Shown: in pieces, positions 44,058-58,281 of the stretch | Numbering within the stretch: the first letter of the stretch is position 1 | Layout of the letters: every line of letters begins with the position of its first letter | Source: an uncultured Candidatus Saccharibacteria bacterium | GTDB taxonomy: Bacteria; Patescibacteriota; Minisyncoccia; Phycocordibacterales; UBA2100 | Direction of reading: 5' to 3' | Assembly: GCA_964545165.1 (NCBI GenBank) | Contig: CAZJEQ010000001.1 | Location: 1,971 to 65,970, forward strand | DNA length: 64,000 bases | Position numbers and translations under genes: made by a program | The notes under the pieces: generated by a model | Seen by the model: only the letters and a program-made list of their open reading frames with translations | The model's database searches: none | What the model was told of the DNA's origin: nothing

Positions 44058-44069
44058 AAACGTCTGTGG

Positions 44070-44142
44070 TGCGCGCTGAGGGACTTGAACCCCCGACCTT
44101 CCCCGTGTAAAGGGGTTGCTCTACCAACTGAGCTAAGCGCGC
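44070..44142 (-). tRNA. tRNA-Val (anticodon TAC), CCA encoded at 44067-44069
   Basis: Reverse complement: GCGCGCT/AGCGCGC acceptor, D-arm GCTC-AGTTGGTA-GAGC, anticodon loop TTTACAC, T-loop TTCAAGT. Confidence 0.85.
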
Positions 44143-44292
44143 ATGTGCCCCCGTTCGGTCTGTAACCCCATGAGGTGAGACACCGTAAGGGTTTCTGGAG
44201 GGACCTTTAATATAACAGGCTTGGGCCGCTCGGTCGCGTCCCTTTTTTGGAAAGTTACAAAAGTGACACAGGAATGTGACGTGACCGTGTCA

Positions 44293-45027
44293 CTATTTGG
44301 TTGACTCGCTTTGTTGCTGCTCTGTCTTTTCAAGGGAAAGGTCTTGTGTGGCAATTGCCTGACGGAGCTTGAACAGACCGAACCACACGGCAGGATGGGC
44401 CTTCATTTTGTGTCGCGGACCGCACACGCAATTAGTTGCCCCATTGATGTGTTCTTGGCCGGAGAGCAACTTTTGCACGCGCGGCCATTCGATCATATTT
44501 GCCTGCATTTTGCGTATGCAGATTTCCACGTGTTCGCGAGAGCTGCCTGAACGATGGTAAGACTCAAATACACCTGCCGAGCCGTGTGAATAGTCATTCC
44601 AGGGCCACTCATCGTGCAAGTCGTAATGCCGCTGTCCATACAAGAATGGGTAGACCAGTTGCTCGAGATACACGGGGAAAGAAAATCCAGCGTTCATGCG
44701 CTCCACCTCTTCTACGGGCCCACACAAACAAGCGTGACCGGTTCCGTAGAAATGCCTATCGAGTATGAGCTCGACCTTATCGCCGAGTACCTGAAGTGTT
44801 GGGAGGGTTTTGTTGTTTCTGCCCTTCTTAATCGATATCTCGTACGCACCGCGGAGCACAACACCCACTCCAGTTTGTCCGGACTGCGTGAGCGGCGTGA
44901 AAGTATCTGTCGCCTTGTCGTAAGCGGCGGCGAACACAATCTCGCCGCTTATCTCCGTATGGTCAGCATTAACTGTGAGAAGTGGGTAGCTGGTTTGGAG
45001 CCATGTGACTTCATCCTTGGTGATCAT
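44293..45027 (-). CDS. uncharacterised protein co-operonic with the CD-NTase (two CxCGP motifs)
   Basis: Overlaps the 3' end of the nucleotidyltransferase gene; contains HACLCGP and NCVCGPRHK; no recognisable E1/E2/JAB/HORMA signature. Confidence 0.45.
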   Translation of the reverse strand: MITKDEVTWLQTSYPLLTVNADHTEISGEIVFAAAYDKATDTFTPLTQSGQTGVGVVLRGAYEISIKKGRNNKTLPTLQVLGDKVELILDRHFYGTGHACLCGPVEEVERMNAGFSFPVYLEQLVYPFLYGQRHYDLHDEWPWNDYSHGSAGVFESYHRSGSSREHVEICIRKMQANMIEWPRVQKLLSGQEHINGATNCVCGPRHKMKAHPAVWFGLFKLRQAIATQDLSLEKTEQQQSESTK

Positions 45028-45940
45028 GGCTGTCGCCCCACTGGCGCGTTGGAGTGAAGGAGCTGCCGGCTGCGTACGCTGCACCGGCAGCTGCGGATGC
45101 TGTGCCGGAAGCCGTAGCCGACTTAGTAGTAGGGCCGCTTTCGCGGAACTCCTGTTGCCAGACGGAAATGTCGTCTACGCCATCGAGCATTTTGTGTGCG
45201 TTGGCTGCAGCACGCGCAATATTAGTCTTCTCGGCGGGCTGCATCAGTTGTGATACTACGTTGTTGGTGTTCGCGGGATCGACGAGTTGCAAGGTCTCAA
45301 ACTCACTCTCGAACGCATCGAGTACGCCCAAGAAACTCTCTTTGAGATCGCTCTTGCTGCGCGAGCCCTTGAGGGCCTCAACGACAAAGAGCTCGAGGAT
45401 GAACGTCTTGATTTGGAGACGATTGCGATGCGCCCAGAGCTTGATCAACCGGATGACCGGTACACATTCGCTGTTGGTAATGTAGTCGATATGCGTCTTG
45501 AGGTTCGTCTTCATGCGCTCCTGCTCACCGTATTGGACGTGTAGGAACACATCCTTAGTGCCTTCTATAAAGCGGCCAGGAACGACGTCGATGTGGAAGT
45601 CGCCCGGCGCGGCCGCGCCCTTGAGATCAAGAATGCGCTCGGCCGACGCTTTTGGGCGCGTGACGTACTTTTCACGCAATCGCTTGGCAACATCTTCACG
45701 AATGTCTTTTAGCGAGCGGGAGTCGCCACTGAGGAAATAGCAGACGATGTCGAGATCGTAACGGTCGCTGATCATCGTGCCCTTCTCATACGAACCCGCA
45801 TACTTTATGTGCGGCGTGTCGCCGAACTCCGTGCGCAGGAATTTAGTAATCTCATCCTTGTGCAACTGGAGGTCTTTCTCCTGACGCGGAGTGAGATCCT
45901 GCGAAGCGAGTGTCTCTTCTAAATATTTTTTTGGTGTCAT
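45011..45940 (-). CDS. CBASS cGAS/DncV-like nucleotidyltransferase (SMODS domain)
   Basis: IKYAGSYEKGTMISDRYDLDIVCYF (GS...DxD) and FHIDVVP third acidic residue; Pol-beta NTase fold; low-complexity Ala/Ser tail. Confidence 0.75.
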   Translation of the reverse strand: MTPKKYLEETLASQDLTPRQEKDLQLHKDEITKFLRTEFGDTPHIKYAGSYEKGTMISDRYDLDIVCYFLSGDSRSLKDIREDVAKRLREKYVTRPKASAERILDLKGAAAPGDFHIDVVPGRFIEGTKDVFLHVQYGEQERMKTNLKTHIDYITNSECVPVIRLIKLWAHRNRLQIKTFILELFVVEALKGSRSKSDLKESFLGVLDAFESEFETLQLVDPANTNNVVSQLMQPAEKTNIARAAANAHKMLDGVDDISVWQQEFRESGPTTKSATASGTASAAAGAAYAAGSSFTPTRQWGDSHDHQG

Positions 45941-45949
45941 ATTGTTTTT

Positions 45950-47068
45950 TTAATTAATGGTTAATGTGGGAACGAAAACACCCTGGTCTCTGTCATATAC
46001 GCGCATGGTCGGATCGGCCTTGGGGAGCAACTCTTTGCCACACAGCACCGCGACCGGAGCTGGTATCGCGGGAAATAAGTAGATAGTGCTGCCGCCGTAC
46101 TTCGCTCCTATCTCGCTAAGCACCTGCCGATATGTTGTTCTGAATTTTTCGAGGCGGGATTTGTAAGGCAAGAAACCTGGGTTGGCACCATCCACTTCTA
46201 TCTCATACACTGGCGCGTCGCCGACAATAGGACGATACATCTCCGAACCGTTCTTGCCGCTGAGCGAGAGTACCAGTGCTACTTTACTGTGGTCCGCGCC
46301 CTCAGTGTGGGTGACGCGAAATGTAAAATCGTCCTCCGCTGGCTCCTCTTTCCACTTCCAGTCATCGGTGTCGCGATGTTTTTGATAGAGGTCTACTGGC
46401 ACAATGTTTCCCAACTGGTTGCCTAGATGCACGAGAATGGGTATCGGCGCGAGTGCAAACACCGACAGATGGCTATACAACAGACCATCATTACCCCGAC
46501 GTAGTGATTGCCGGAGCTGTTCTGTTACCTCACTCGCGAATTGCGTCCAAAACGCTTCGTCGCCTCTACCTGCCTTGTGACTGAAGTCGAGCCATACGCC
46601 CTTGTCATCCGCTAAAGGACGCGATTGAACTGCCGGAAAAATATCGGCGGGTGCAATTTCAACCCGCCGATCGCCGATCGGTGCATTGAACCGGAGCACA
46701 GCAGTAGGACCTTCGACGCCGATGGCTGTCTGGCGTTGGATACGCTCCTCGTGCTTTTGTTTGTAGCTCCGTAGTTGCTCAATCGTATAGGACTCCGCAT
46801 TGCGCCCGTCTATGAGGCGCGAATGCTTGAGACATACGAGCATGAGGTTGTCGTAATCGGTTTGTAACTCGGACGATAACTCCTCATCTCCGCGTGGACC
46901 GTTCGGACTCGCCGCGACAATGTGCGCCATGTGGGCGAAATTATCTTCCTTCTGAGTAGTGTCATCGCGCCAAACCGGCTCGTTACAGTTTGGGAACTCG
47001 CAACGGCCTCCGGAATGGACCCAGAGTTTAAGCCTGACCTGCTCGGGTATGTTAAGACGCGCCGCCAT
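45950..47068 (-). CDS. CBASS effector Cap5-like: N-terminal HNH endonuclease + C-terminal SAVED domain
   Basis: HNH motif (LWVHSGGRCEFPNCN...NFAHMAHIVAASPNGPRGD); C-terminal ~250 aa SAVED-like; 10 bp upstream of the NTase gene. The ORF-track start at 47251 is an over-extension into the DUF2188 gene. Confidence 0.7.
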   Translation of the reverse strand: MAARLNIPEQVRLKLWVHSGGRCEFPNCNEPVWRDDTTQKEDNFAHMAHIVAASPNGPRGDEELSSELQTDYDNLMLVCLKHSRLIDGRNAESYTIEQLRSYKQKHEERIQRQTAIGVEGPTAVLRFNAPIGDRRVEIAPADIFPAVQSRPLADDKGVWLDFSHKAGRGDEAFWTQFASEVTEQLRQSLRRGNDGLLYSHLSVFALAPIPILVHLGNQLGNIVPVDLYQKHRDTDDWKWKEEPAEDDFTFRVTHTEGADHSKVALVLSLSGKNGSEMYRPIVGDAPVYEIEVDGANPGFLPYKSRLEKFRTTYRQVLSEIGAKYGGSTIYLFPAIPAPVAVLCGKELLPKADPTMRVYDRDQGVFVPTLTIN

Positions 47069-47075
47069 ATCGTTA

Positions 47076-47321
47076 TTAGTGCTTCTTGTCGCGAGGAGGA
47101 TTCGGATCATGACCAGGCGCAACAGTGTCGCTGTCGCGGATAGGTCCGCCATTCGGCTTGTGAATCCGTACCTCGCCACCACCGGAGTTACCGGAAAACT
47201 CCTTGGCGATTTTCTCCGCTTCCTTTTGTGTATCCGCAGTCGCGGACGCACGATCAGCTCCTTCTTTTACAACCTTCCAAACATCGGACCCCTTGGGGTT
47301 CGTGACGTGGTAATTAGCCAT
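47076..47321 (-). CDS. DUF2188-family small protein
   Basis: MANYHVTNPKGSDVWKVVKEGADRASATADTQKEAEKIA...IHKPNGGPIRDSDTV..DPNPPRD matches the DUF2188 pattern. Confidence 0.6.
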   Translation of the reverse strand: MANYHVTNPKGSDVWKVVKEGADRASATADTQKEAEKIAKEFSGNSGGGEVRIHKPNGGPIRDSDTVAPGHDPNPPRDKKH

Positions 47322-47326
47322 ACGTT

Positions 47327-47962
47327 TTAGTACAGGTCGGGTGGCAAGACTCCCACCACCACACCCTGAATGCTGCAATTATCTGTTAATACGATCGGCG
47401 TGTGCGGATCGGACGACTTCGGGCGGAGGATCACCACGCCGTTCTTTCGTTCCAATATCTTTACGGTCGCTTCGTCGTTAATGAGCGCGACGACGATCTG
47501 GCCGTCGTCTGCGGATTCCTGCTGGCGCACGAGCACGATGCTTCTGTCATCGACGCTCACGCCGCCCACTCTCGCCTGGTTCATTGACGTACCAACGACA
47601 CGGAGCAGAAAGTACCGTGAGCCGGGACGCGCGAGCGCCGTCGAGACTGGAATCACTGCCTCGACATTCTGCTTCGCGAGCATCGGCGCACCGGCGGCTA
47701 CACTGCCCACCAATGGCACGTTCACCGTGGACACGGACGTGTTCGCATTGAGGCTCGGACTCGTGAGCCGAATCCTTCTGCCGAGGCGGCGTATAAGCCC
47801 CGCCGCTTCAAGGCGTTCGAGGGCCAAGACAGCCGAGCGGGGGGAGGCCTTCTTGGTCACCTGGTTGATTTCCCGCAGCGTGGGCGCTTCCTGACCGTGG
47901 ACGAGGCGGTTGCGGATGAGGAGATAGACCTGCTTGTCGCTCTCGCTGAGGTTATTAATCAT
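47327..47962 (-). CDS. lexA: LexA-like repressor (wHTH + S24 peptidase)
   Basis: N-terminal wHTH; S24 catalytic Ser in GTSM and Lys in VKIL; VAAG cleavage-site region. Confidence 0.8.
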   Translation of the reverse strand: MINNLSESDKQVYLLIRNRLVHGQEAPTLREINQVTKKASPRSAVLALERLEAAGLIRRLGRRIRLTSPSLNANTSVSTVNVPLVGSVAAGAPMLAKQNVEAVIPVSTALARPGSRYFLLRVVGTSMNQARVGGVSVDDRSIVLVRQQESADDGQIVVALINDEATVKILERKNGVVILRPKSSDPHTPIVLTDNCSIQGVVVGVLPPDLY

Positions 47963-48021
47963 AGGTATAAACAAGTATACACCCAAGTGGACTTTTTTGC
48001 AAGGGGTGCTAGGCTAGAGAA

Positions 48022-48441
48022 ATGGAGTACCAGCTGCAACTCAAGCCGTTCGAGCGCAAGGATGGTCTCAAATACAAGGTCATACAGATTACCGATATAG
48101 CCCTCCACACGACCCCTCACCGCCCAACCTCCGTCGGCAAGAAAATCAAGCAGGCGTTCACTCAAAACAAGCCGGGACGGGTGTACGCGCCGTTGACAGG
48201 GGCCATACAGACGGATGAATCCGCCCACGAGGCCAAGATCTCCATTGAGCAATTGATTCGGCAGGACCCTGAACTGGTGCGCTGGATTCAAGAAGAGGAA
48301 CAAAAGGGGTACAAGATCCTGATCGGTCTCCCGAAGGGCGGCATTCCGATATTCGAGGGACCGGATACCCGGGAGTTCCTCCAGAGCAAAAACGGTAAGC
48401 GCGTGCTTAGAGGGCTTGCCAAGAAACAGGACGGTGTATAA
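48022..48441 (+). CDS. hypothetical protein, divergent from lexA
   Basis: 139-aa ORF with no recognisable motifs. Confidence 0.4.
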   Translation: MEYQLQLKPFERKDGLKYKVIQITDIALHTTPHRPTSVGKKIKQAFTQNKPGRVYAPLTGAIQTDESAHEAKISIEQLIRQDPELVRWIQEEEQKGYKILIGLPKGGIPIFEGPDTREFLQSKNGKRVLRGLAKKQDGV

Positions 48442-48571
48442 TAAGGGTTCAGCGTAGTAAAAAGTAGAGTAGCGTATCGCCTCCAGGCCATGCCTACTTC
48501 GCGCAAGAGATAGTGAGGTCTTCGGACTTTCCCTGTTTCGTGTGTGGAGTAGGCATTTTCTATATCCACGC

Positions 48572-48592
48572 ATTTATTAACAGCTCGTTAAT
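48572..48592. promoter_or_regulatory. perfect palindrome TTATTAAC-agctc-GTTAATAA overlapping the RBS region of the ParB-MTase gene (candidate operator)
   Basis: 8-bp arms, 5-bp spacer, ending 9 nt before the ATG at 48601. Confidence 0.4.
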
Positions 48593-48600
48593 AAAGGCAT

Positions 48601-49872
48601 ATGCAAAAACTAGCCTGGAAAACAGAGCGGCGGCGGGTCAACGACCTGCTGCCCTACGAGGCCAACCCTCGTGTTATCAGCGATAAGCAGATGGAGGATC
48701 TCAAAAAGAGTCTCCGCATGTTCAACCTGGTCGAACTCCCCGCGATAGATGCGGACAACCGAATCATTGCGGGGCACCAACGCCTCAAGGCGCTTCAGCT
48801 TCTCGGGCGCGGTGAGGAACAGATCGAGGTGCGCGTCCCGAACCGCAAACTCACCAAGGCGGAATTCGAGCGGTACCTCGTCACCTCGAACGCGGTGGGT
48901 GGCGACTGGGACTTCAGCAAGCTCAAGTCGTTCGACCTCGAGCTGTTGCTCGACATCGGATTCAATGACGACGATGTCGCCAGCATTTGGGATGGCAACC
49001 TCGAAACCGAGGACGACGGCTTCGACGTAGAAAAAGAACTCGCCAAAATCACGAAGCCGAAAACGAAACTCGGTGACCTCTACCAGCTCGGGACGCATCG
49101 CCTCATCTGCGGCGACTCGACCGATCTAGCGGTGCTAAAGAAACTCGTCGGCAAGGATGCGGTCTCGATGATATACAGCGACCCCGTCTACAACATCGGT
49201 GTCGACTACAACAAAGGCATCGGCGGCAAGAAGTCATACGGCGGCACGGTGAACGATAAGCGCACCGATACCGAGTACAAAGTATTTCTCCGCACAACGC
49301 TCGAGAACGCACTCACCGTCTCCAAGCTCGACACGCATGTGTACTATTGGTGCGATGAATCGTACATCTGGCTTATTCAAGAGTTGTACCGAGAACTCGG
49401 TATCGAGAACAAGCGCGTATGCATGTGGATCAAGAACGGCCACAATCCGACGCCCGGCGTCGCGTTCAACAAATGCTACGAGCCCTGCGTGTACGGCGTG
49501 CGCGGAAAACCCCATCTCACCAAGGGCATCGACAACCTCAACGAGGTGTTCAACAAAGAACTCACGACCGGCAACCGGCTTATCGACGACATCCTCGACC
49601 TCCTCAACATCTGGCTCGTGAAGCGGATGGCGGGACAGGACTACCAGCACGCCACGGCAAAACCGCCCACACTCCACGAAAAAGCCATCCGGCGCTGTAC
49701 GCGCCCGGGTGATCTCATTCTCGACTCGTTCGGCGGCTCCGGCAGCACCTTAATAGCAGCAGAACAGCTCAAGCGGCGCTCCGCCTTGGTCGAACTGGAG
49801 CCGATATTCTGCGACCTCATCGTCAAGCGATATGAAGCACTCACGCACACAAAAGCCAAAAAGCTCAATTAA
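48601..49872 (+). CDS. ParB-like nuclease N-terminal domain fused to DNA methyltransferase (N6A/N4C beta-class)
   Basis: ParB-N motif (AGHQRLKA); SDPVYN (DPPY-like) catalytic motif; C-terminal DSFGGSGST AdoMet-binding motif. Confidence 0.75.
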   Translation: MQKLAWKTERRRVNDLLPYEANPRVISDKQMEDLKKSLRMFNLVELPAIDADNRIIAGHQRLKALQLLGRGEEQIEVRVPNRKLTKAEFERYLVTSNAVGGDWDFSKLKSFDLELLLDIGFNDDDVASIWDGNLETEDDGFDVEKELAKITKPKTKLGDLYQLGTHRLICGDSTDLAVLKKLVGKDAVSMIYSDPVYNIGVDYNKGIGGKKSYGGTVNDKRTDTEYKVFLRTTLENALTVSKLDTHVYYWCDESYIWLIQELYRELGIENKRVCMWIKNGHNPTPGVAFNKCYEPCVYGVRGKPHLTKGIDNLNEVFNKELTTGNRLIDDILDLLNIWLVKRMAGQDYQHATAKPPTLHEKAIRRCTRPGDLILDSFGGSGSTLIAAEQLKRRSALVELEPIFCDLIVKRYEALTHTKAKKLN

Positions 49873-50605
49873 GGTCGGTGACGTCTTCTGCATCGGCGAC
49901 CACGTACTCGGCTGCGGCGATGCCCGCGATGCCGACTTCGTGAATCGCGTCATCGGCAAGGCCAAGATCGCACTCATTCTGAGCGACCCGCCGTATGGCG
50001 TGGCATTCGTCGAGAGCAAGGAATCCTTCACGAACATCAAGGTACAAAAGAGAATCCTCAACGATGGAATCGTCTCGGAATCGCAGTACGCGCAATTCAC
50101 GAAGGACTGGCTTGTGCCGGTCGTGCCGCATCTTGCGAGCAAGAACAGCGTCTACATCTTCAACTCCGACAAGATGCTCTTTGCCCTGCGCGAGGGCATG
50201 GAGCGCTCAGGCATCCGCTTCGCACAACTCTTGGTATGGATCAAAAACCATGTCGTGGTCGGGCGCAAAGACTATCTTCCCCAGCATGAGCTAGTGGCAT
50301 ACGGCTGGCATGGCACGCATGACTTCAAGAAAGCGAAGGATAAATCCATCCTCTTCTATCCGAAGCCGAGCAAGAGCCCGCTGCACCCGACACAAAAGCC
50401 GGTAGGACTCCTGCGCCGTCTCGTCCTCAACAGTTCCGACATCAAAGGTGTGGTGTACGACTGCTTTGCGGGGTCGGGCTCGACCGGCATCGCCGCGGAG
50501 CAGTGCAAGCGCAAGTCGATCCTCATCGAGCGGGACGAGGAGTATTGCCAGACCATTATCAGCCGCTTCGAGCGGGAGTTCGGACTCAAGGCGACAAAGG
50601 TATGA
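49832..50605 (+). CDS. DNA methyltransferase (beta-class N6-adenine/N4-cytosine)
   Basis: SDPPYG catalytic motif followed by CFAGSGSTGIAAE motif I; overlaps the previous gene by ~40 nt. Confidence 0.75.
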   Translation: MKHSRTQKPKSSIKVGDVFCIGDHVLGCGDARDADFVNRVIGKAKIALILSDPPYGVAFVESKESFTNIKVQKRILNDGIVSESQYAQFTKDWLVPVVPHLASKNSVYIFNSDKMLFALREGMERSGIRFAQLLVWIKNHVVVGRKDYLPQHELVAYGWHGTHDFKKAKDKSILFYPKPSKSPLHPTQKPVGLLRRLVLNSSDIKGVVYDCFAGSGSTGIAAEQCKRKSILIERDEEYCQTIISRFEREFGLKATKV

Positions 50606-51072
50606 AAAAGGACCGCACCAAAAACCTCTTTCTGGAGCAGCTTCGGAAAATCCCGATCGTGCAAATCGCGTGCGAGAAAGTCGACATCTCGCGCAACACC
50701 ATCTACCGCTGGCGCAAAGAAGAGCCTGAATTCGCTAAGACGATGGACGAGGCGCTCACCGACGGCGAGGCGGTCGTCAACGACATGAGCGAATCGCAGT
50801 TGCTCTCCAAGATCAAAAACGGCGAATGGCCTCCCATCGCGTTCTGGCTTCGCAAACGCCACCCGAAATTCAAAGACCGCCTCGAAATTACCGGCATCTT
50901 GCAAGGACCGCAGGAAGAGCTGTCCCCCGAACAAGAGGCTGTCGTTAAAGAAGCGCTGCGCCTTGCTTCGTTATCCGTCGAGCAGCCACTAGAACAACCA
51001 ATCGAACAAGCGGATACCGCGCAAGGTGCGGAAGAAATTAGTCATAAGAAAAAAGACCATGAACAAAATTAA
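50602..51072 (+). CDS. phage terminase small subunit-like HTH protein
   Basis: ACEKVDISRNTIYRWRKEEPEF HTH typical of small terminases; overlaps the MTase stop and the TerL start. Confidence 0.55.
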   Translation: MKKDRTKNLFLEQLRKIPIVQIACEKVDISRNTIYRWRKEEPEFAKTMDEALTDGEAVVNDMSESQLLSKIKNGEWPPIAFWLRKRHPKFKDRLEITGILQGPQEELSPEQEAVVKEALRLASLSVEQPLEQPIEQADTAQGAEEISHKKKDHEQN

Positions 51073-52552
51073 TACCAACGAGAATTACCAGTCCAACAGC
51101 GGGCTTACACCAGAGCTTGCGGAGAAAATGTTCCGCGACCGCCGCATCCGAACGGCGATCACGCGGCAAAGCCACTTCATGTTCTTCCATTTCTACTTCG
51201 CGCACTATGTGAAGTACGCGACCGCGCCATTCCAACGCGAGCTATTTCACCTGAGCGAACGGCAGGACATCAAAAATCTTTTTGTCGTCGCGTTTCGCGG
51301 ATCGGCAAAGTCGACAATATTCACGACCTCGTATCCGGTGTGGGCGATTCTTGGAGAACAGCAGAAAAAATTCGTGCTCATCCTCTGCCAGACGCAAGCG
51401 CAGGCAAAGCAACACATGATGAACTTGCGCCGCGAGCTTGAGAGCAACGCACTTCTCAAGAACGACCTTGGTCCATTCCAAGAAGAGAATAACGAGTGGG
51501 GTTCGTCGTCGCTCGTGTTCTCGAATCTCAACGCTCGCATCACGGCAGTCTCATCCGAGCAGAGCATTCGCGGTCTGCGCCACAATCAGCATCGTCCCGA
51601 CTTGATTGTCGGCGACGACCTAGAGGACCTCGCATCTACGAAAACGCGAGAGGGACGCAACAAAACCTACCAGTGGCTCACGGGAGAGGTTGTGCCCGCA
51701 GGCGACCGCAATACGCGACTCGTCATAGTCGGCAACTTGCTCCATGAGGACTCGCTCCTCATGCGGCTCAAAGAGGATGTCGATAAAGGGAGAATTAATG
51801 GCGTATTCAAGGCGTACCCACTGATACAAAAGGGCCTCATCGTATGGCCCGGCAAGTATCCCTCGATGGCGGACATCGAAGAGGAAAAATCGAAAGCGGC
51901 GAATGAGTACGCATGGCAGCGAGAGTATCTGCTGCACATTGTACCGGCTGAAGATCAGGCGATTCATCGTGAATGGATACAGTACTACGACACCATACCG
52001 GCACCGATTCGGGTCATCGACAATTACACGTCACACAAGGAGGTTCGCATCGGTATCGACCCGGCCATCTCAAAAAACGACGCTGCGGATTATACGGCTA
52101 TGGTGCCCGGGCTGTTGTACGAACTCAGGGAGGGGTATCGGATTTATATTCTCCCGAAAATCATCAATAGGCGTATGTCATTCCCGGAAACGGTGGAAAT
52201 GTGCAAGACGCTTGACGACAGCTATGGCGAAGAGGATACGGGACGTCCAACATTCGTGATCGAAGATGTTGCGTATCAGAAAGCGTTGCCGCAGCAACTG
52301 AAGGACGAAGGGATATGGAACGTGATGACAACGCGGCCGGGCAATCAAGACAAGCGTAGTCGTCTCGTGCTCACAGCGAATCTCATCAAGAGCGGCAAAA
52401 TCCTCTTTCCGAGGGAGGGCGCGGAGCAACTCATACAGCAAATCGTACACTTTGGCGTTGAGAAGCACGACGACCTTGCCGATGCGTTCGCAAATCTCGT
52501 GCATAGTGTTTCAGAGGATCCACCGTGCGTACCGAGAATATTTTTTTTCTGA
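51059..52552 (+). CDS. phage terminase large subunit
   Basis: Walker A-like VVAFRGSAKST and Walker B DLIVGDDLED; C-terminal RNase H-like nuclease (IGIDPA...DAADYTAMV). Confidence 0.75.
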   Translation: MNKINTNENYQSNSGLTPELAEKMFRDRRIRTAITRQSHFMFFHFYFAHYVKYATAPFQRELFHLSERQDIKNLFVVAFRGSAKSTIFTTSYPVWAILGEQQKKFVLILCQTQAQAKQHMMNLRRELESNALLKNDLGPFQEENNEWGSSSLVFSNLNARITAVSSEQSIRGLRHNQHRPDLIVGDDLEDLASTKTREGRNKTYQWLTGEVVPAGDRNTRLVIVGNLLHEDSLLMRLKEDVDKGRINGVFKAYPLIQKGLIVWPGKYPSMADIEEEKSKAANEYAWQREYLLHIVPAEDQAIHREWIQYYDTIPAPIRVIDNYTSHKEVRIGIDPAISKNDAADYTAMVPGLLYELREGYRIYILPKIINRRMSFPETVEMCKTLDDSYGEEDTGRPTFVIEDVAYQKALPQQLKDEGIWNVMTTRPGNQDKRSRLVLTANLIKSGKILFPREGAEQLIQQIVHFGVEKHDDLADAFANLVHSVSEDPPCVPRIFFF

Positions 52553-52597: not shown

Positions 52598-53467
52598 TTA
52601 CTGGCATTGCGGACTAAGCGAGCGACTGTATTTTGCGAGCAATGCATCAAGTGTATCGAATGATTCTAGATAACTCTCGCTCAGACCCTTCCATCCGTCG
52701 CAGGACGCTGGGTAGTAGTACTTTGCACTGTAGTGAGAGGACGTGTAGTACTTGCTGCCGGTGGAGGGTTGCGCGACCGGATCCGCTTTGCCGTTGCAGG
52801 TGGTCGGTGACCACAAACCCTTACCAGCATTCTGCGCGGCAAGTTGAGCGGCTTTGAATTCCGCTTGATACTTGTACGCTTTATCGTACGTGTACTCGTA
52901 TGCGTACCCATCGGCGACCATATTCTTGTTGAAGAATAGGCTGTCATCGCGGTAGATGTAGACGAGGAGCCGTCCATACTTGTCTCGCGTGTCCTGGGTT
53001 GGGTCGGCTTCAATGCGAACCTTCTGACCAGACAGTAATGCTTTTGCCCGGTTGGATGCTTCGGTGCCGAAACATTGTACGGGCTTCCGTGGATCAACGG
53101 TCTCTGGAGTATCGATGCCGATAAGTCGGAGCGTTTCTACTGTGCCGCCCATGTTTATCTTAAGCGTGTCGCCATCAACAACGTCGGTGACTGCGTAGTA
53201 CTGATACTGTGGAGCGGACTGAGTCGGAGTAGCGGGAGTCTGTGTAACCGACGGTGTTTGCTTCGGCGCAGTAGCCTCTGTCTTTGCGGTAACGAATGTC
53301 ACTTCTGTGACAGACTCAGATGTTGTTGCTTCAGTAGCAGTTTCTGTCTGCGAGATTTGCTGCAGCTGTTCTTGGGCAGGCGCTGGTTCCGGCGAAGGGG
53401 CGAAAATGCCGATGATAAAAAGTAGGCCGATGACACCTCCAACACCGTAAAGAATTTTTCTAATCAT
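52598..53467 (-). CDS. membrane-anchored thermonuclease (SNase-like) family protein
   Basis: N-terminal TM helix; Thr/Glu-rich linker; SNase motifs (VVDGDTLK, RLIGIDTPE, YGRLLVYIY). Confidence 0.7.
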   Translation of the reverse strand: MIRKILYGVGGVIGLLFIIGIFAPSPEPAPAQEQLQQISQTETATEATTSESVTEVTFVTAKTEATAPKQTPSVTQTPATPTQSAPQYQYYAVTDVVDGDTLKINMGGTVETLRLIGIDTPETVDPRKPVQCFGTEASNRAKALLSGQKVRIEADPTQDTRDKYGRLLVYIYRDDSLFFNKNMVADGYAYEYTYDKAYKYQAEFKAAQLAAQNAGKGLWSPTTCNGKADPVAQPSTGSKYYTSSHYSAKYYYPASCDGWKGLSESYLESFDTLDALLAKYSRSLSPQCQ

Positions 53468-53607
53468 ATGGCTCAGGTCTTGGTGTTCTAACTTAGGTTC
53501 GAGGGTATGCGAAGGGGGTTACCAACTCTTGCCTTTGATTGACATTCGTAGCCTAACATAATTATTCCACTTTGGAATATCCCAATACGGAATACACGCT
53601 TATAGGT

Positions 53608-53826
53608 ATGAGAAAGTCTATTCATACCAACGAGAGGGCTGGGTTCGTAAAGAAGCTGAAACAGGCTCGGCTCGAAGCTGGGTTGAGCCAGACAGAGGTA
53701 GCAAAGAAACTAGGCTGCTCGCAGTCTTGGGTATCGAAAATTGAATTGGGCGAGTTGCGAGTGGAAGCGATTTGGCTTAATCGTTTGGCGAAGCTCTACG
53801 GAAAGAGCCTGAGCTACTTTCTATAG
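53608..53826 (+). CDS. XRE-family HTH transcriptional regulator
   Basis: LSQTEVAKKLGCSQSWVSKIE HTH_3 motif. Confidence 0.7.
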   Translation: MRKSIHTNERAGFVKKLKQARLEAGLSQTEVAKKLGCSQSWVSKIELGELRVEAIWLNRLAKLYGKSLSYFL

Positions 53827-53917
53827 GCTATAGGCGCATCCTTTAGATGCCTGGCCCCTTGAAGCTTTGAATAGTCTCCACTGGATTTTCAGCTGGATTC
53901 GCGGTATTCCTTAAGGT

Positions 53918-54340
53918 ATGACTGTAACCGTGACATCAAATTGTAAAAAGTGTGATGGGGCTGGAAGGTATATGTACGATGAAAATCACATAAAACCTTG
54001 TGAGGAGTGTTGCACTCATTCAGAAGGATGGTGGGAGCTGGAAGAACATTACGGAAACGATAACGGCAAATATGCATGCAAGAAAGGTTGCGGAACTCTG
54101 ATGACTCGACCACCGTCAGAAAAACTAACGAAGAAAATACCCGTTCCTCAAACGGAAGAAGATCTTATGGAACTCACCAAAGATGCGCTCGCCGACGTAC
54201 TTGGGCGTGAGCCCACAAAGCAGGAAATTCTAAAGGCGCATGCCGGATTTAAACGCATGGCCTTTGTCATGCACGAACATCTTCGTCACGAGGAGGTTAC
54301 AAAGAAAGAAGCCCCCAAAGATCCAAAACACTCGAATTAA
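53918..54340 (+). CDS. hypothetical Cys-rich protein
   Basis: 140-aa ORF with CKKCDGAG...CEEC and CKKGCG clusters. Confidence 0.4.
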   Translation: MTVTVTSNCKKCDGAGRYMYDENHIKPCEECCTHSEGWWELEEHYGNDNGKYACKKGCGTLMTRPPSEKLTKKIPVPQTEEDLMELTKDALADVLGREPTKQEILKAHAGFKRMAFVMHEHLRHEEVTKKEAPKDPKHSN

Positions 54341-54499
54341 TTAGCACGTACACTTCGTCTCTGCTTCACTGCACGCCTTGCACTTCGGCATGCAGTGATC
54401 CCCGCCGCATTTGTGATTTGCATCATGCTCCTTCGCCTCCGCGCCGCATACATCACACTTAAACCCCTCCACATCGCCGTCACATGTCTTACACGACAT
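54341..54499 (-). CDS. small Cys-rich metal-binding protein (52 aa), not in the ORF track
   Basis: Reverse-strand ORF MSCKTCDGDVEGFKCDVCGAEAKEHDANHKCGGDHCMPKCKACSEAETKCTC with 12 Cys; co-oriented immediately downstream of the multicopper oxidase. Confidence 0.4.
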   Translation of the reverse strand: MSCKTCDGDVEGFKCDVCGAEAKEHDANHKCGGDHCMPKCKACSEAETKCTC

Positions 54500-54539
54500 A
54501 CGTTTTAGTGATTACAAAATTTACTAATAATTTACCCCA

Positions 54540-56090
54540 TTATTCTACGCTATATTTAAGCATCATCCCGGCTTCGAGGTGCTCCGCGATATGGCAATGC
54601 GCCATCCAAGTACCGGGGTTGGATGTATCGAGCACGATGTCGACGGTTTCTCCCGCCTTCACGAGCACGGTATCTTTCCAAACGAGATTCGTCTGCGGCA
54701 CACCATCGCGCGAGACAACGAGGAATCGTTGGCCGTGGAAATGGATTGGATGTTGCATAGGATGCATTGATTTTGGATCGTTGAAAATCCTGATCTTGAC
54801 CGGTTCACCTTTTTTGAAAGTCCAATCTATATCCATATCTTTCTTGCCGGTGTCCTGATCAATGATCCGCCATTTAACCATCTCGGCATTCGACATCTCA
54901 TTCATCATTTGCATATCAGTGTCTTCCCATTCGATTCCTCCTTCGGGTACTTCTCCCATACTCATGCCTCCCATCATTGTGCCGTCCGACATCATGTGGC
55001 CTCCCATGCCGCTCATCATTCCTCCTGTCATGTCGACTGAAAGCGCAATGCGCTTATCCGGTGCTGTCTCAAAGAGGAATCGATAAGGTTCAATGCTTGC
55101 GATGGTTTCTGCGTGTGAGCGAAGTGTCCCGAATTGCGCGGCATATGACTCTTCGATCTCTTGATTCAACACGGTTATGCTCCCGAGTGCATAGGTTTTT
55201 TCGGGAGTTTTGTTTTGGATCGCGTATGTTCCCGCATTGTCGAAAAGCACTTCGACAATCGCGCGCTCTGACGGCCCCAAGACAACACTATCGGCCCAGC
55301 TCTCTTGCTCATAAGCGCCTCCATCTGCGCCAACAAGCTTCATCCGAGTTCCTTCAATCGCAAAGTTGAATGGGCGGGTATTCGCGACATTCGTGACGTA
55401 CAAGCGTACAACCTCTCCCTCCTTCATTTCGAGTTTGTACGCCTCATCGCCATTTATGAGCATCACATTGCCGAATCGACCCATGAGCGTGCGGTCAGCT
55501 CCTTTTTTGCTGAGGAGGATATTGCCATCCTCGATGAGGATGTCATCAAGAAAAAGTGGAATTTCGCGATTGACTGGCGACCAGTAGTCTTGAGAATTCG
55601 GAATTACAAGATACCCGCCATAGAGTCCAAGCTCTTGCTGGTAGTCTTCGCGTACATGCGGGTGATACCAGTACATTCCGACATCAGGAAACTTCAGTCT
55701 GTACGAAAATGTTTCGCCGGGCTCCATTTCCTTTTGGCTGGTTTGCGATCCATCAAAAGGATTATCCATCCGCACTCCGTGTGAATGTAGGAGGGTTTTC
55801 ATGTCCGTATTATTAGTAAAGTTGATCGTAACCTCTGCACCTTGCGCGACCTTGATAAGCGGTCCCGGAATAGAACCGTTATAGGCAAGCATCGAGTATG
55901 TCTTGCCTCCGATGTTCTTTTTGACAGCAGATGCCACAAGGTCATATGTGTCGCCATTTTTGAGTTCGACGATCTGGCTCTCCGTAACAGGTGACATTTG
56001 CTGCCCCGGGATGACCCACCAGCCGATTGCGGCGATTGTGCCTCCGATAAGCGCGACTGCCACTGCGATGTTGAAGTATTTTTGGTTCAT
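54540..56090 (-). CDS. multicopper oxidase (CueO/laccase-like) with Met-rich insert
   Basis: Copper-ligand motifs HSHGV, HPHVRE, HCHIAEHLEAGMM; Met/Gly-rich segment MTGGMMSGMGGHMMSDGTMMGGMSMG; signal/TM N-terminus. Confidence 0.85.
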   Translation of the reverse strand: MNQKYFNIAVAVALIGGTIAAIGWWVIPGQQMSPVTESQIVELKNGDTYDLVASAVKKNIGGKTYSMLAYNGSIPGPLIKVAQGAEVTINFTNNTDMKTLLHSHGVRMDNPFDGSQTSQKEMEPGETFSYRLKFPDVGMYWYHPHVREDYQQELGLYGGYLVIPNSQDYWSPVNREIPLFLDDILIEDGNILLSKKGADRTLMGRFGNVMLINGDEAYKLEMKEGEVVRLYVTNVANTRPFNFAIEGTRMKLVGADGGAYEQESWADSVVLGPSERAIVEVLFDNAGTYAIQNKTPEKTYALGSITVLNQEIEESYAAQFGTLRSHAETIASIEPYRFLFETAPDKRIALSVDMTGGMMSGMGGHMMSDGTMMGGMSMGEVPEGGIEWEDTDMQMMNEMSNAEMVKWRIIDQDTGKKDMDIDWTFKKGEPVKIRIFNDPKSMHPMQHPIHFHGQRFLVVSRDGVPQTNLVWKDTVLVKAGETVDIVLDTSNPGTWMAHCHIAEHLEAGMMLKYSVE

Positions 56091-56497
56091 ACAGAGTTAC
56101 GTGACGTAATAAATACCCTAATCCATTCTTTCCAAAAAAGAAAGGCGAGGATTGGAAAGACGAGAGACGTGACAAGCCCCGGATAGTAGTCTCCTGCGAA
56201 TAAGGCCTTGATCGGGTGATGCAGTTCAAAAACGAAGATTATTCCTACGAGCGCAAGTGCGTAGAAACGAGTGCGCTCACTAATGAGAAACAGCAGAGCA
56301 ACGGCAAGGAGCACCCAGAACATCATTTGAAAGGTTGCGAACATCGCCTGATGAATCGACGTAAATGGCAACAGTCCAAAAATCCATTCATCCCACTTAT
56401 CAAGAGTATAAAATCCAGTGAAATATTCCTCAATGCCGTGCAGAATAAACACGGGTATCGATGCGGCAAAGATATATTTTATTCGTGGTGTGATCAT
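56087..56497 (-). CDS. HXXEE-domain membrane protein
   Basis: HGIEEY motif in a 4-TM ~136-aa protein; overlaps the MCO start by 4 nt. Confidence 0.55.
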   Translation of the reverse strand: MITPRIKYIFAASIPVFILHGIEEYFTGFYTLDKWDEWIFGLLPFTSIHQAMFATFQMMFWVLLAVALLFLISERTRFYALALVGIIFVFELHHPIKALFAGDYYPGLVTSLVFPILAFLFWKEWIRVFITSRNSV

Positions 56498-56499
56498 AA

Positions 56500-57117: not shown

Positions 57118-57380
57118 TAGATCATTTCTCCCTTCTTCTCAAGCATCATGTGGTGGATAGTTGCGATCTGTGTCCAAATGGCAATAAGGATAAGAATCGC
57201 AGAACATGCGAGCGCGTCGGCTTTAGTAATACCAAAAACCGATTGCGGGTCGCCAAAAGCCGCGATGAGAAAAGAGATTACACCAATAAATCCGACAATC
57301 ACACTCGCAACATGCATTAATTTTGATGGTTTCATATTTTTATGATTAATTCTTAATATATTGCGCGAGCAATCCGACAA
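57117..57380 (-). CDS. small hypothetical membrane protein
   Basis: 87-aa ORF with two hydrophobic helices, in the operon-like run. Confidence 0.3.
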   Translation of the reverse strand: MSDCSRNILRINHKNMKPSKLMHVASVIVGFIGVISFLIAAFGDPQSVFGITKADALACSAILILIAIWTQIATIHHMMLEKKGEMI

Positions 57381-57597
57381 GCCCGATGCTCGCGCCCACG
57401 ATAATGTTCCAGAGAATGAGGCTTACGACGAAGTTCTGAAGCGTGAAGATATTCTCAACCGGCCCGACATTCAAGTGCAAGATGTACGGCAGAAGCGTGG
57501 GACGAATTGCCGGTATCAACCCTAAGAGTCCGTAGCACAGCACGTACGTAATATTGATATACGCCAAACCTATCTTAATTGCACGAGTGATGTTCAT
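57346..57597 (-). CDS. small hypothetical membrane protein
   Basis: 83-aa hydrophobic ORF. Confidence 0.3.
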   Translation of the reverse strand: MNITRAIKIGLAYINITYVLCYGLLGLIPAIRPTLLPYILHLNVGPVENIFTLQNFVVSLILWNIIVGASIGLVGLLAQYIKN

Positions 57598-58279: not shown

Positions 58280-58281
58280 AT

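What the first reader, a model, noticed from the sequence alone, without database searches (positions are those of the whole stretch)
44293..47962. CBASS-like operon (Cap5-like HNH-SAVED effector, SMODS cyclase, unknown third gene) next to LexA and DUF2188
On the minus strand, an HNH+SAVED protein (45950-47068) is followed 10 bp later by a cGAS/DncV-like nucleotidyltransferase with the GS...DxD...D active-site pattern (45011-45940). A third overlapping gene follows at 44293-45027. SMODS plus SAVED-HNH is the defining pair of CBASS systems with a Cap5 effector. Two things are less usual: the effector-first gene order, and the tightly overlapping third gene with no recognisable Cap2/Cap3/HORMA features. 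Directly upstream on the same strand are a DUF2188 gene and a LexA-type S24 repressor. This is compatible with SOS or prophage-repressor control of the locus, though that link is inference. The locus sits just past tRNA-Val at the start of an accessory region.
Basis: partly seen in the sequence, partly recalled or inferred. Interest (0 to 1): 0.65.

Follow-up and report, generated by a model that had tools for sequence, protein, structure and literature searches.

The report
LexA-linked E2-type CBASS defence operon
Five tightly packed minus-strand genes encode a complete anti-phage CBASS system (nuclease effector, signal-making cyclase, E2-like regulator) sitting behind a LexA-type repressor on a small phage-derived mobile element, in a slot that holds other defence systems in related bacteria.

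Summary
The "unknown third gene" (44293-45027) is not unknown. It matches seven PADLOC CBASS E2 models (best E 1.5e-25), and His92, Cys100 and His148 are invariant or nearly so in 134 relatives. The locus is therefore a type II-short (E2-only) CBASS with a Cap5 HNH-SAVED effector.

It departs from the studied E2-CBASS in three ways:
- The cyclase is short and closest to CdnC/CdnD rather than CdnG.
- Its C-terminal 41 residues are predicted disordered and carry a conserved F-x-P-x-x-[P/Q]-W-[S/C/G/A] motif.
- The E2 carries a SEC-C-like zinc motif.

The effector-cyclase-E2 gene order is conserved in more than 20 loci.

The most interesting result concerns LexA. A wHTH-S24 gene sits directly upstream, on the same strand, in 15 of about 26 related CBASS loci. 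Five of five sampled LexA orthologues (69-77% identity) are followed by a different defence cargo: CBASS type I, Thoeris, PDC-S53 and others. All of these, and the window, have a conserved methylase/terS (small terminase) backbone; the window and four of the five also have terL (large terminase). The five orthologue loci, but not the window, also carry a serine recombinase.

The CBASS itself is ordinary. The LexA-headed cargo slot was not described in any paper I could search.

The parts
47974..48002 (-). Sigma-70-like promoter of the operon: -35 TTGCAA (48002-47997), 17-nt spacer, -10 TATACT (47979-47974)
   Evidence: This is the only promoter-like site on the minus strand between 43900 and 48700. 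The same layout is conserved upstream of LexA orthologues in L005, L019 and L035-L039.
47965..47979 (-). Conserved element TATACT-N3-TTATAC (two TATAC units 10 bp apart). It overlaps the -10 box and the predicted transcription start and ends 2 nt before the lexA ATG. It is the candidate LexA operator.
   Evidence: There is one exact copy in the 64-kb window, here. There is one exact copy per locus, always just 5' of lexA, in L005, L035, L036, L037 and L038. No canonical GAAC-N4-GTTC, CTGT-N8-ACAG or GTTC-N7-GTTC box is nearby. Protein binding was not tested.
47327..47962 (-). LexA-family repressor: winged helix-turn-helix (wHTH) plus S24 self-cleaving peptidase, 211 aa. It has the Ala90-Gly91 cleavage site, Ser126 and Lys168.
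   Evidence: Pfam S24 7e-25 and LexA_DNA_bind 4e-7. The NCBIfam LexA equivalog scores 140 bits against a cut-off of 111. There are 842 homologues, with hundreds at 65-93% identity in Patescibacteria.
47076..47321 (-). DUF2188 small protein (81 aa), function unknown. It is part of the LexA-side backbone rather than of CBASS.
   Evidence: Pfam DUF2188 4e-20; PADLOC candidate PDC-S16 5e-17; phrog_3220. It occupies the same slot in L005, L026, L036 and L038, ahead of differing cargo.
45950..47068 (-). Cap5-type effector: N-terminal HNH nuclease (Cys23/Cys28, His49, Asn74, His82) plus C-terminal SAVED nucleotide sensor, 372 aa.
   Evidence: PADLOC effector/endonuclease 5e-116 and SAVED_HNH 1e-106. 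Full-length alignment to solved chains 8ysq (1e-61) and 7rwk (2e-47).
45011..45940 (-). CD-NTase (cyclase), 309 aa, with G49-S50, D62-x-D64 and D118. Its core is residues 1-265.
   Evidence: PADLOC cyclase PDLC00803 2e-67. The catalytic residues are invariant in alignment A2. The AF2 model has pLDDT 80, and its best structural matches are CdnC, CdnD and CdnB with TM 0.62-0.69. The profile search of PDB gives CdnC 5.5e-10 and SmCdnG 1e-6.
45014..45145 (-). C-terminal tail of the cyclase (residues 266-309): a low-complexity Ala/Ser/Gly/Thr linker, then the conserved F295-T-P297-T-R-Q-W301-G302 motif, then a variable 7-residue end (DSHDHQG). Proposed handle and processing site for the E2.
   Evidence: pLDDT is below 50 for residues 269-309. 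The motif is present in 115 of 120 homologues. The residue after the aromatic is S, C, G or A in 105 of 115, and tails run 1-13 aa.
44293..45027 (-). E2-only Cap2-like regulator, 244 aa. Catalytic His92 and Cys100 (plus Cys102) and His148; C-terminal SEC-C-like zinc motif C200-x-C202...H206...H211. Its start overlaps the cyclase stop by 17 nt.
   Evidence: Seven PADLOC E2 or E1-E2 models match, best 1.5e-25. H92 and C100 are present in 134 of 134 relatives and H148 in 133 of 134. A profile-profile alignment places H92/C100 on the HPN-His/Cys85 of UBE2D2 (pairwise E 0.0025, probability 12%). The SEC-C motif matches SecA peptides at E 0.02-0.04. The family has 983 cluster representatives.
44257..44293 (-). 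Weak terminator-like hairpin (GTGACAC...GTGTCAC, 17-nt loop) followed by TTTTGT, immediately after the E2 stop codon.
   Evidence: Read directly from the sequence. The scanner reported a hairpin only for the opposite strand, at 44276-44293. Not folded or tested.
44067..44142 (-). tRNA-Val (TAC), the left neighbour of the accessory region.
   Evidence: ARAGORN. No repeat of it was found up to 55 kb. tRNA adjacency is not conserved in related loci.
48022..52552 (+). Divergent backbone of the element: orf139 (48022-48441), ParB-N6/N4 DNA methylase (48601-49872), second methylase (49832-50605), small terminase-like HTH (about 50602-51072) and large terminase (51026-52552).
   Evidence: Pfam. PHROGs: phrog_498 methyltransferase 4e-87, terS 1e-11, terL phrog_38 8e-76. 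The same genes recur, in whole or in part, next to LexA or CBASS at 47-83% identity in L002, L005, L012, L013, L020, L035-L039 and in IMG/VR contigs L040-L044.

Best explanation
The locus is a type II-short (E2-only) CBASS abortive-infection system.

Proposed mechanism:
1. The CD-NTase (45011-45940) makes a cyclic oligonucleotide when infection is sensed.
2. The SAVED domain of the Cap5 protein (45950-47068) binds that signal and switches on its HNH nuclease, which degrades DNA and stops the infected cell.
3. The E2 (44293-45027) uses His92/Cys100 to capture the flexible C-terminal tail of the cyclase. It probably trims the variable end after the conserved Trp301-Gly302 and links the cyclase covalently, priming or tuning its activity, as shown for Serratia CdnG-E2.

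The three genes are cargo in a slot directly downstream of a LexA-family self-cleaving repressor (plus DUF2188). They are most likely transcribed with it from the single promoter at 48002-47974. Expression would then be low and autoregulated at rest, and would rise when RecA-ssDNA (DNA damage or phage replication) triggers LexA self-cleavage.

LexA, the divergent methylases and terS/terL form the backbone of a phage-derived integrative element that is widespread in Patescibacteria. In other copies this element also carries a serine recombinase, and its LexA-side slot carries varied defence systems.

Shown here: gene identities, catalytic residues, synteny, and the conserved promoter element. 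Inferred: the signal molecule, the E2 chemistry on this tail, LexA binding, SOS induction, mobility and the anti-phage phenotype.
For: CBASS parts:
- PADLOC and PDB matches and invariant catalytic residues.
- The cyclase model matches solved CD-NTases.

E2 mechanism:
- The spacing H92-C100-H148 parallels SmE2 H87-C101-H152, for which thioester/isopeptide linkage and C-terminal trimming were demonstrated (PMC12948482).
- The cyclase tail is disordered and has a conserved aromatic-plus-small-residue motif followed by variable ends of 1-13 aa.
- The 17-nt cyclase/E2 overlap recurs in L001, L003, L005, L007 and L013.

Operon:
- Gaps of 5, 7 and 9 nt and a 17-nt overlap.
- One promoter-like site on this strand.

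Regulator link:
- A wHTH-S24 gene is directly upstream on the same strand in 15 distinct loci, including Bacteroidota loci that lack the phage-like backbone (L017, L021, L024) and an Omnitrophota locus.
- In other family members the same slot holds an IrrE/M78 peptidase, preceded by a small upstream ORF in L018 that I read as HTH-like by eye. This resembles the known CapH/CapP regulators.

Element:
- Each of these loci has homologous methylase and terS genes and a serine recombinase within 8 kb, and four of the five have terL.
- The exact motif TATACT-N3-TTATAC occurs once per locus, in front of lexA.
- IMG/VR contigs hold the same backbone.
Against: - The E2 assignment rests on PADLOC models and motif logic. 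Foldseek of the E2 model against PDB found no significant E2 match (best E 0.04, unrelated folds). Pfam and NCBIfam are silent or faint. The profile-profile match to canonical E2 is weak.
- The cyclase lacks the structured alpha/beta E2-binding motif and the conserved Gly reported for E2-CBASS cyclases. Only 18 of 115 relatives have Gly after the aromatic residue.
- No serine recombinase is present anywhere in the 64-kb window, and no att repeats were found. This copy may be immobile, or it may extend past the window end.
- LexA binding to the conserved element and co-transcription were not tested. Internal promoters inside coding sequence cannot be excluded.
- About 11 of 26 related CBASS loci have no S24 gene, so the repressor is not obligatory.
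- The window LexA passes the housekeeping LexA equivalog threshold, so it could also be the cell's SOS repressor.
Confidence: 0.7

Rival explanations
1. The LexA protein is simply the cell's housekeeping SOS repressor. CBASS, like the other cargos, has landed next to lexA because that site is an insertion hotspot. It runs from its own promoter with no regulatory link to LexA.
For: The protein passes the NCBIfam LexA equivalog cut-off. It has hundreds of 65-93% identical relatives annotated as LexA in Patescibacteria. That is more conservation than is usual for mobile-element immunity repressors. About 11 of 26 related CBASS loci function without any S24 gene.
Against: Gaps of 3-18 nt between lexA (or DUF2188) and the first cargo gene in the window, L035, L036, L038 and L039 leave no intergenic room for a promoter. 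No other promoter-like site is found on that strand. LexA travels with the methylase/terminase/recombinase genes into different chromosomal contexts and into IMG/VR contigs. A second, non-equivalog wHTH-S24 type heads the same CBASS in Bacteroidota without that backbone. CapH/CapP-like regulators occupy the same slot elsewhere.
Confidence: 0.15
2. The S24 protein acts mainly as the CI-like maintenance repressor of a satellite-like or defective prophage element. CBASS is a passenger expressed together with the repressor in the quiescent state, as with lambda cI-rexAB. The point would be constitutive protection of the carrier cell rather than damage-induced up-regulation.
For: lexA and the packaging/methylase operon are divergent and share a 59-bp control region. 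The backbone has terS, terL and, in other copies, a serine recombinase. The cargo downstream of the repressor is variable. This arrangement resembles known defence hotspots of prophages and satellites (own knowledge: P2/P4 hotspots, PICI cargo, lambda rexAB).
Against: This largely overlaps the best explanation and differs only in emphasis. Self-cleaving S24 repressors are derepressed on SOS, so cargo behind an autoregulated promoter should rise rather than fall. S24-CBASS pairs also exist without any backbone (L017, L021, L024). No capsid, portal or replication genes are seen in any copy, so a phage-like life cycle is unproven.
Confidence: 0.35
3. The third protein is not a working E2. It is a degenerate or structural partner, and the system behaves as a two-gene type I CBASS.
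For: There is no significant structural match to E2 folds. No Pfam UQ_con or Prok-E2 hit was found for the window protein. The cyclase lacks the canonical E2-binding motif and the conserved Gly. The window clade has lost the third Cys of the SEC-C-like motif.
Against: His92 and Cys100 are invariant in 134 of 134 family members and His148 in 133 of 134. Seven PADLOC E2 models match. The E2 start overlaps the cyclase stop in a conserved way. The cyclase tail motif is conserved in 115 of 120 homologues, which argues for a partner that reads it. When the cyclase is fused to an AGS-C domain the tail motif is missing, and in the one such locus examined (L019) no E2 gene is present.
Confidence: 0.08

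Closest known systems
E2-CBASS / type II-short CBASS, studied in Serratia marcescens CdnG-E2 (bioRxiv 10.1101/2022.05.25.493364; PMC12948482)
   Same: A cyclase, an effector and a stand-alone E2, with no E1 and no JAB. The E2 has a catalytic Cys with a His about 8-14 residues upstream and a second His about 50 residues downstream. The cyclase carries extra residues after the presumed attachment residue, which the Serratia E2 is known to trim.
   Different: The cyclase is 309 aa (SmCdnG is 407) and is closest to CdnC/CdnD, not clade G. Its tail is disordered, with an F-x-P-x-x-[P/Q]-W-[S/C/G/A] motif in place of a helix plus three-stranded sheet and a conserved Gly. The E2 is 244 aa (against about 160) and has a SEC-C-like zinc motif. 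The gene order is effector-cyclase-E2.
Cap5 HNH-SAVED effectors (solved chains 8ysq, 7rwk, 7rwm, 8fm1, 7rws)
   Same: Full-length alignment of both HNH and SAVED domains, with the HNH His/Asn/His and Cys residues retained.
   Different: The activating nucleotide is unknown. Identity to solved proteins was not calculated; phmmer E-values are 1e-61 and weaker.
CBASS-associated transcription regulators CapW (wHTH-WYL), CapH+CapP (HTH plus IrrE-like metallopeptidase) and CapK+CapS (bioRxiv 10.1101/2022.04.27.489752; PMC11662680; PMC13373217)
   Same: A repressor gene immediately upstream of the immune operon that senses DNA damage. Relatives of this same CBASS carry an IrrE/M78 peptidase in the same slot, with a small upstream ORF in L018.
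   Different: Here the regulator is a single LexA/CI-type wHTH-S24 self-cleaving protein. It has no WYL, M78 or kinase domain. No paper in the searchable library links S24 repressors to CBASS.
Defence hotspots of prophages and satellites: lambda cI-rexAB, P2/P4 hotspots, PICI cargo (own knowledge, not checked in the library)
   Same: A conserved mobile backbone with a fixed slot that holds interchangeable defence systems. The cargo is placed in the repressor's transcription unit.
   Different: The backbone here is LexA, ParB-methylase, terS, terL and a large serine recombinase, with no capsid, portal, primase or Stl-like genes. The hosts are Patescibacteria. Helper dependence and mobility are unknown.
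Type III CBASS cyclases EcCdnC and PaCdnD (6p80, 6p8u, 6p82)
   Same: These are the best sequence-profile and structural matches to the cyclase core, and they are of similar length.
   Different: Those enzymes work with HORMA/TRIP13 partners, and none is present here. Identity is only 18-19%.

Membership tests
CBASS (any type) | CD-NTase with the GS...DxD...D active site | tested here: met
   G49-S50, D62, D64 and D118 are invariant in 26 relatives. PADLOC cyclase 2e-67. The CD-NTase fold matches with TM 0.62-0.69.
CBASS (any type) | Adjacent effector with a cyclic-nucleotide sensor domain | tested here: met
   SAVED 4e-40 fused to HNH, 9 nt upstream of the cyclase.
CBASS (any type) | Makes a cyclic oligonucleotide and protects against phage | not testable with these tools
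   This needs LC-MS and plaque assays.
Type II-short (E2-only) CBASS | Stand-alone E2-like accessory protein, with no E1 or JAB gene | tested here: met
   Seven PADLOC E2 or E1-E2 models match, best 1.5e-25. The protein is 244 aa, and no E1 or JAB hit occurs in the operon. Independent fold confirmation failed.
Type II-short (E2-only) CBASS | Catalytic Cys with nearby His residues in the E2 | tested here: met
   H92 and C100 in 134 of 134 relatives, H148 in 133 of 134. The spacing resembles SmE2 H87/C101/H152. The alignment to the HPN-His/Cys85 of UBE2D2 is weak, E 0.0025.
Type II-short (E2-only) CBASS | Conserved Gly at or near the cyclase C-terminus as the attachment residue | tested here: inconclusive
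   The window has G302 after W301 and a terminal G309. In the family the position after the aromatic is S 42, C 30, G 18 and A 15 of 115, and the last residue is not conserved. G406A was tolerated in Serratia.
Type II-short (E2-only) CBASS, CdnG subtype | Clade G cyclase of about 400 aa with a structured C-terminal helix plus beta-sheet E2-binding motif | tested here: not met
   The cyclase is 309 aa. The closest matches are CdnC (5.5e-10) ahead of SmCdnG (1e-6). Residues 269-309 have pLDDT below 50 and no secondary structure. No formal clade tree was built.
Cap5 effector | N-terminal HNH nuclease plus C-terminal SAVED in one chain | tested here: met
   End-to-end alignment to 8ysq (query residues 4-372) and 7rwk (7-362). 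PADLOC SAVED_HNH 1e-106.
LexA | wHTH DNA-binding domain plus S24 domain with an Ala-Gly site and a Ser/Lys dyad | tested here: met
   TIGR00498 scores 140 bits against a cut-off of 111. A90-G91, S126 and K168 are present.
LexA | Represses DNA-repair genes through a clade-specific SOS box; cleavage is RecA-stimulated | not tested
   No canonical box lies near the promoter. The conserved TATACT-N3-TTATAC element was found only in front of lexA in the sequence held. The paper on the Patescibacteria LexA motif (PMID 28618189) is not held.
CapW / CapH-CapP / CapK-CapS regulators | WYL domain, or HTH plus M78 peptidase, or kinase plus repressor | tested here: not met
   The window regulator has only LexA_DNA_bind and S24. 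It resembles these regulators in position and predicted logic but is not a member.
Phage satellite / integrative element | Own integrase/recombinase | tested here: not met
   tblastn with four element recombinases found nothing in the 64-kb window. Recombinases are present in L035-L043. The gene may lie beyond 64000 or may have been lost.
Phage satellite / integrative element | Repressor and packaging genes but no virion structural genes | tested here: met
   LexA, terS and terL are present. No capsid, portal or tail hits occur in the window neighbours or in the gene tables of L035-L039.
Phage satellite / integrative element | Induced excision and helper-dependent transfer | not testable with these tools
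   This needs experiments.

The most novel reading that the evidence does not exclude
LexA/CI-type wHTH-S24 repressors are a further, undescribed class of dedicated regulators of CBASS and other abortive-infection systems. In Patescibacteria they would head a defence-cargo slot on a widespread, previously uncharacterised family of terminase-bearing, serine-recombinase integrative elements. This would tie defence expression, and perhaps element mobilisation, directly to RecA-sensed DNA damage. Within that slot, this CBASS would represent a distinct E2-CBASS lineage in which the E2 reads a disordered Trp-small-residue tail instead of a ubiquitin-like fold ending in Gly.
Probability: 0.4. Interest if true: 0.75.

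Novelty: new variant of a known kind. Interest (0 to 1): 0.6.

Why it matters
How toxic abortive-infection systems are kept quiet yet ready is an open question. Only three regulator classes are described for CBASS: CapW, CapH/CapP and CapK/CapS.

A self-cleaving LexA-type repressor heading the operon would be the simplest possible link between RecA-sensed phage or DNA damage and immune gene dosage. It is directly testable by EMSA, reporter assays and mitomycin C induction.

The conserved LexA-methylase-terminase-recombinase backbone with interchangeable cargo gives a ready-made "guilt by position" tool. It could be used to find new defence genes in Patescibacteria, organisms with tiny genomes and few cultured members.

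The cyclase tail motif and the SEC-C-bearing E2 extend the sequence space in which ubiquitin-like cyclase conjugation may operate without a terminal glycine.

Tried and rejected
- Foldseek of the E2 model (pLDDT 76) against PDB gave no significant hit. The top hits were CorA and phage portal noise, with UBE2O and TSG101-UEV only at E above 2.
- The E2 family profile against PDB sequences found only SecA SEC-C peptides.
- Pfam on 17 E2 relatives gave only faint UQ_con (1 member, 0.058) and SEC-C (2 members, 0.055).
- hhalign to UBE2D2 alone gave probability 2%. This is suggestive only.
- The att-site search found no meaningful direct repeats between 43600 and 55000 and no copy of the tRNA-Val end. 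tRNAs are not consistently adjacent in 15 related loci.
- Canonical LexA boxes (Gram-positive, E. coli, alphaproteobacterial, cyanobacterial) are absent near the promoter.
- An inverted-repeat search of the control region found only 6-nt palindromes.
- The Patescibacteria SOS paper (PMID 28618189) could not be read.
- The source organism could not be named from cluster look-ups. Assignment to Patescibacteria/Paceibacterota rests on nearest relatives only.
- I first thought that the C-terminal Gly309 is the conjugation residue. I dropped this because the last residue is not conserved in 120 homologues.
- I first thought that the S24 gene is specific to this CBASS. I revised this after LexA orthologues were found in front of other defence systems.

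Full report
**Observation**

The minus strand between 44293 and 47962 carries five ORFs exactly as described. They are:
- a LexA-like gene (47327-47962, start at the Met of MINNLSE)
- a DUF2188 gene (47076-47321)
- an HNH-SAVED gene (45950-47068)
- a nucleotidyltransferase gene (45011-45940)
- a third gene (44293-45027)

The spacing is 5, 7 and 9 nt, followed by a 17-nt overlap. tRNA-Val lies at 44067-44142. Only one sigma-70-like promoter is found on this strand in the region: TTGCAA-17-TATACT at 48002-47974, just upstream of lexA. A weak hairpin plus T-run follows the last stop codon.

**The three CBASS genes**

*Effector.* It matches Pfam SAVED (4e-40) and PADLOC endonuclease-effector and SAVED_HNH models (5e-116 and 1e-106). 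It aligns end to end with the solved Cap5-type chains 8ysq (1e-61) and 7rwk (2e-47). The HNH His49/Asn74/His82 and the Cys pair are in place.

*Cyclase.*
- It passes the Pfam SMODS threshold and hits PADLOC cyclase PDLC00803 at 2e-67.
- G49-S50, D62-x-D64 and D118 are invariant in 26 relatives.
- Its AlphaFold model (pLDDT 80) matches solved CD-NTases, best EcCdnC, PaCdnD and BfCdnB with TM 0.62-0.69.
- A family profile ranks CdnC (5.5e-10) above SmCdnG (1e-6).

However, it hits seven PADLOC E2 or E1-E2 models (best 1.5e-25). PADLOC logic would therefore call the system type II-short CBASS.

**How good is the E2 call?**

The family is large: 983 cluster representatives at E of 1e-3 or better. 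In 134 aligned members:
- His92 and Cys100 are invariant.
- His148 is present in 133.
- A C-terminal C-x-C...C-H motif is present in about 125.

That last motif matches the SecA SEC-C zinc peptide. The window's clade has Ala in place of the third Cys.

The His-Cys-His spacing parallels SmE2 H87/C101/H152, the residues shown to catalyse tail trimming, thioester formation and isopeptide turnover.

The AF2 model (pLDDT 76) has an N-terminal helix, a beta-meander, the catalytic loop and then helices. Foldseek found no significant PDB match, and profile-profile alignment to canonical E2s is weak, although it places His92/Cys100 on the HPN-His and catalytic Cys. I accept the E2 assignment at about 0.85.

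**Differences from the studied E2-CBASS**

Published E2-CBASS cyclases are mostly clade G and about 400 aa. They carry a structured helix-plus-sheet E2-binding motif and a conserved near-terminal Gly.

Here the cyclase is 309 aa and residues 269-309 are predicted disordered. The tail is an Ala/Ser/Gly/Thr-rich linker followed by F-x-P-x-x-[P/Q]-W. In 115 of 120 homologues the aromatic residue is followed by a small residue (S 42, C 30, G 18, A 15) and then 1-13 variable residues. In the window this reads W301-G302-DSHDHQG.

I infer that the E2 trims after the small residue and attaches there. This is not shown. Homologues in which the cyclase is fused to an AGS-C domain lack the tail motif. 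In the one such locus examined (L019), no E2 gene was found.

**Family synteny**

The order effector-cyclase-E2 is fixed in every complete locus recovered. These loci come from several groups:
- Patescibacteria lineages (Paceibacterota, Saccharibacteria, Zambryskibacteria, Nomurabacteria)
- Bacteroidota
- Omnitrophota
- Acidobacteriota

The effector-first order is therefore a family trait. The 17-nt cyclase/E2 overlap recurs in L001, L003, L005, L007 and L013.

**The LexA link**

I listed what lies just upstream of Cap5 in each locus and scanned those proteins. This gave 15 distinct loci with a wHTH-S24 gene directly upstream on the same strand. There are two S24 types.

- *Type A* passes the NCBIfam LexA equivalog threshold (140 bits against 111). 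It is found in the window, L005/6, L035, L019, L022 and the Omnitrophota locus L023.
- *Type B* does not pass (90 bits). It is found in Saccharibacteria, other Patescibacteria and three Bacteroidota loci.

The three Bacteroidota loci (L017, L021, L024) have none of the phage-like neighbours, so there the S24 gene tracks the CBASS itself.

In other relatives the same slot holds an IrrE/M78 peptidase, preceded in L018 by a small ORF that I read by eye as HTH-like (L018, L028, L029). This is the CapH/CapP arrangement already known to regulate CBASS.

The window LexA has the Ala90-Gly91 site, Ser126 and Lys168. I found no paper in the library linking S24 repressors to CBASS.

**LexA belongs to a mobile backbone with a cargo slot**

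The window LexA has 842 homologues, hundreds of them 65-93% identical, in Patescibacteria. All five are followed within 3-53 nt by defence genes confirmed with PADLOC:

| Locus | Cargo downstream of lexA |
|---|---|
| L035 | Cap5-cyclase-E2 |
| L036 | DUF2188, type I CBASS cyclase, 2TM/Cap15 effector |
| L037 | PDC-M50A, ThsB-TIR, an E2, one unknown gene |
| L038 | DUF2188, DUF8370/8371 protein, PDC-S53 helicase |
| L039 | ThsB and ThsA-Macro (Thoeris) |

All five have a divergent ParB-methylase and a terS gene, and four also have terL, homologous to the window's genes at 31-73% identity. All five have a large serine recombinase within 8 kb, and those of L035 and L037-L039 are 59-76% identical to each other.

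IMG/VR contigs show the same methylase-terS-terL-recombinase string, and one of them (L041) also has the divergent LexA.

A 15-nt element, TATACT-N3-TTATAC, overlaps the -10 box. It occurs exactly once per locus, always in front of lexA, in the window and in five other loci. It is the obvious operator candidate. Canonical SOS boxes are absent.

DUF2188 belongs to this LexA side of the backbone, not to CBASS.

**This copy of the element**

The window has the methylases, terS and terL but no serine recombinase anywhere in its 64 kb. No att repeats were found.

After terL come a staphylococcal-type nuclease and then a lower-GC (0.45-0.53) copper-resistance block that runs to the window end. In other copies, extra cargo sits between terL and the recombinase (L036, L041). 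The element may therefore continue past position 64000, or it may be decayed.

**Mechanism and confidence**

- Type II-short CBASS with a Cap5 effector: about 0.9.
- E2 acting on the cyclase tail: about 0.6 for the specific site.
- Co-transcription with lexA and autoregulated, damage-inducible expression: about 0.65.
- Membership of a mobile, satellite-like element family with a LexA-side defence slot: about 0.7.

Rival readings are listed with their tests:
- LexA is the housekeeping repressor and the adjacency is incidental.
- LexA is a pure CI-like maintenance repressor carrying a passenger.
- The E2 is non-functional.

**Novelty**

The CBASS is a new member, with variant features, of a known type. 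The S24-headed arrangement and the Patescibacterial backbone with interchangeable defence cargo were not found in the searched literature. That search is limited to open-access text, so I rate the whole finding as a new variant of a known kind.

Noticed in passing
window 7099-8691 (+): A 530-aa fusion of a reverse transcriptase (RVT_1, 3e-22) and a trypsin-like protease (Trypsin_2, 8e-18) lies in a low-GC patch (0.48). It looks like a defence-type RT.
   Followed up: no
window 52598-64000: After terL come an SNase-family nuclease (52598-53467, minus strand) and a lower-GC (0.45-0.53) block. The block holds a multicopper oxidase, a P-type Cu ATPase, a cupredoxin/DUF7282 protein, DUF6629, an HXXEE protein and an ATP-cone plus Mrr-type nuclease (60763-61602). 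It may be a second cargo region of the same element.
   Followed up: partly
L037 8690-11614: The cargo behind LexA combines PDC-M50A, a ThsB-type TIR protein, an E2 of the same family as the window's (PADLOC E2 1e-31; 27% identity) and an unannotated 417-aa protein. This is an E2 paired with TIR rather than with a recognisable cyclase.
   Followed up: partly
L019 7974-9284; proteins P0076, P0097, P0098: Some close cyclase homologues are about 430 aa with a C-terminal AGS-C domain (PF18134). They lack the Trp-small-residue tail. In L019 no E2 gene follows.
   Followed up: partly
L012 6609-6818; L020 6584-6793: In two type-B loci the slot between the S24 gene and Cap5 holds a 69-aa protein (phrog_323 'transcriptional regulator, D5-like', 2e-9) instead of DUF2188.
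   Followed up: partly
L003, L012, L013, L015, L017, L020, L021, L024, L026, about 40-70 nt upstream of the type-B S24 start: Tandem TGTCAAG / GTGTAAA-like direct repeats recur upstream of the -35 region across Patescibacteria and Bacteroidota loci. This may be the operator of the type-B repressors. It was seen by eye only, with no statistics.
   Followed up: no
L036 320-2967; L041 9579-17144: A second variable region lies between terL and the serine recombinase. It holds a UvrD-like helicase plus AbiJ in L036 and about 8 kb of large ORFs in L041.
   Followed up: no
window 44293-47962, start regions: None of the five genes has a recognisable Shine-Dalgarno sequence. The lexA -10 box lies only 11 nt before the ATG, which implies a nearly leaderless transcript.
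   Followed up: no
L007/L009/L011 531-1343 (minus strand); L022 5503-6195 (minus strand): A conserved 230-270-aa protein of unknown function (N-terminus ...YDQNYYKAAAMLKDPWF...) is divergent from the CBASS or LexA promoter in loci that lack orf139.
   Followed up: no
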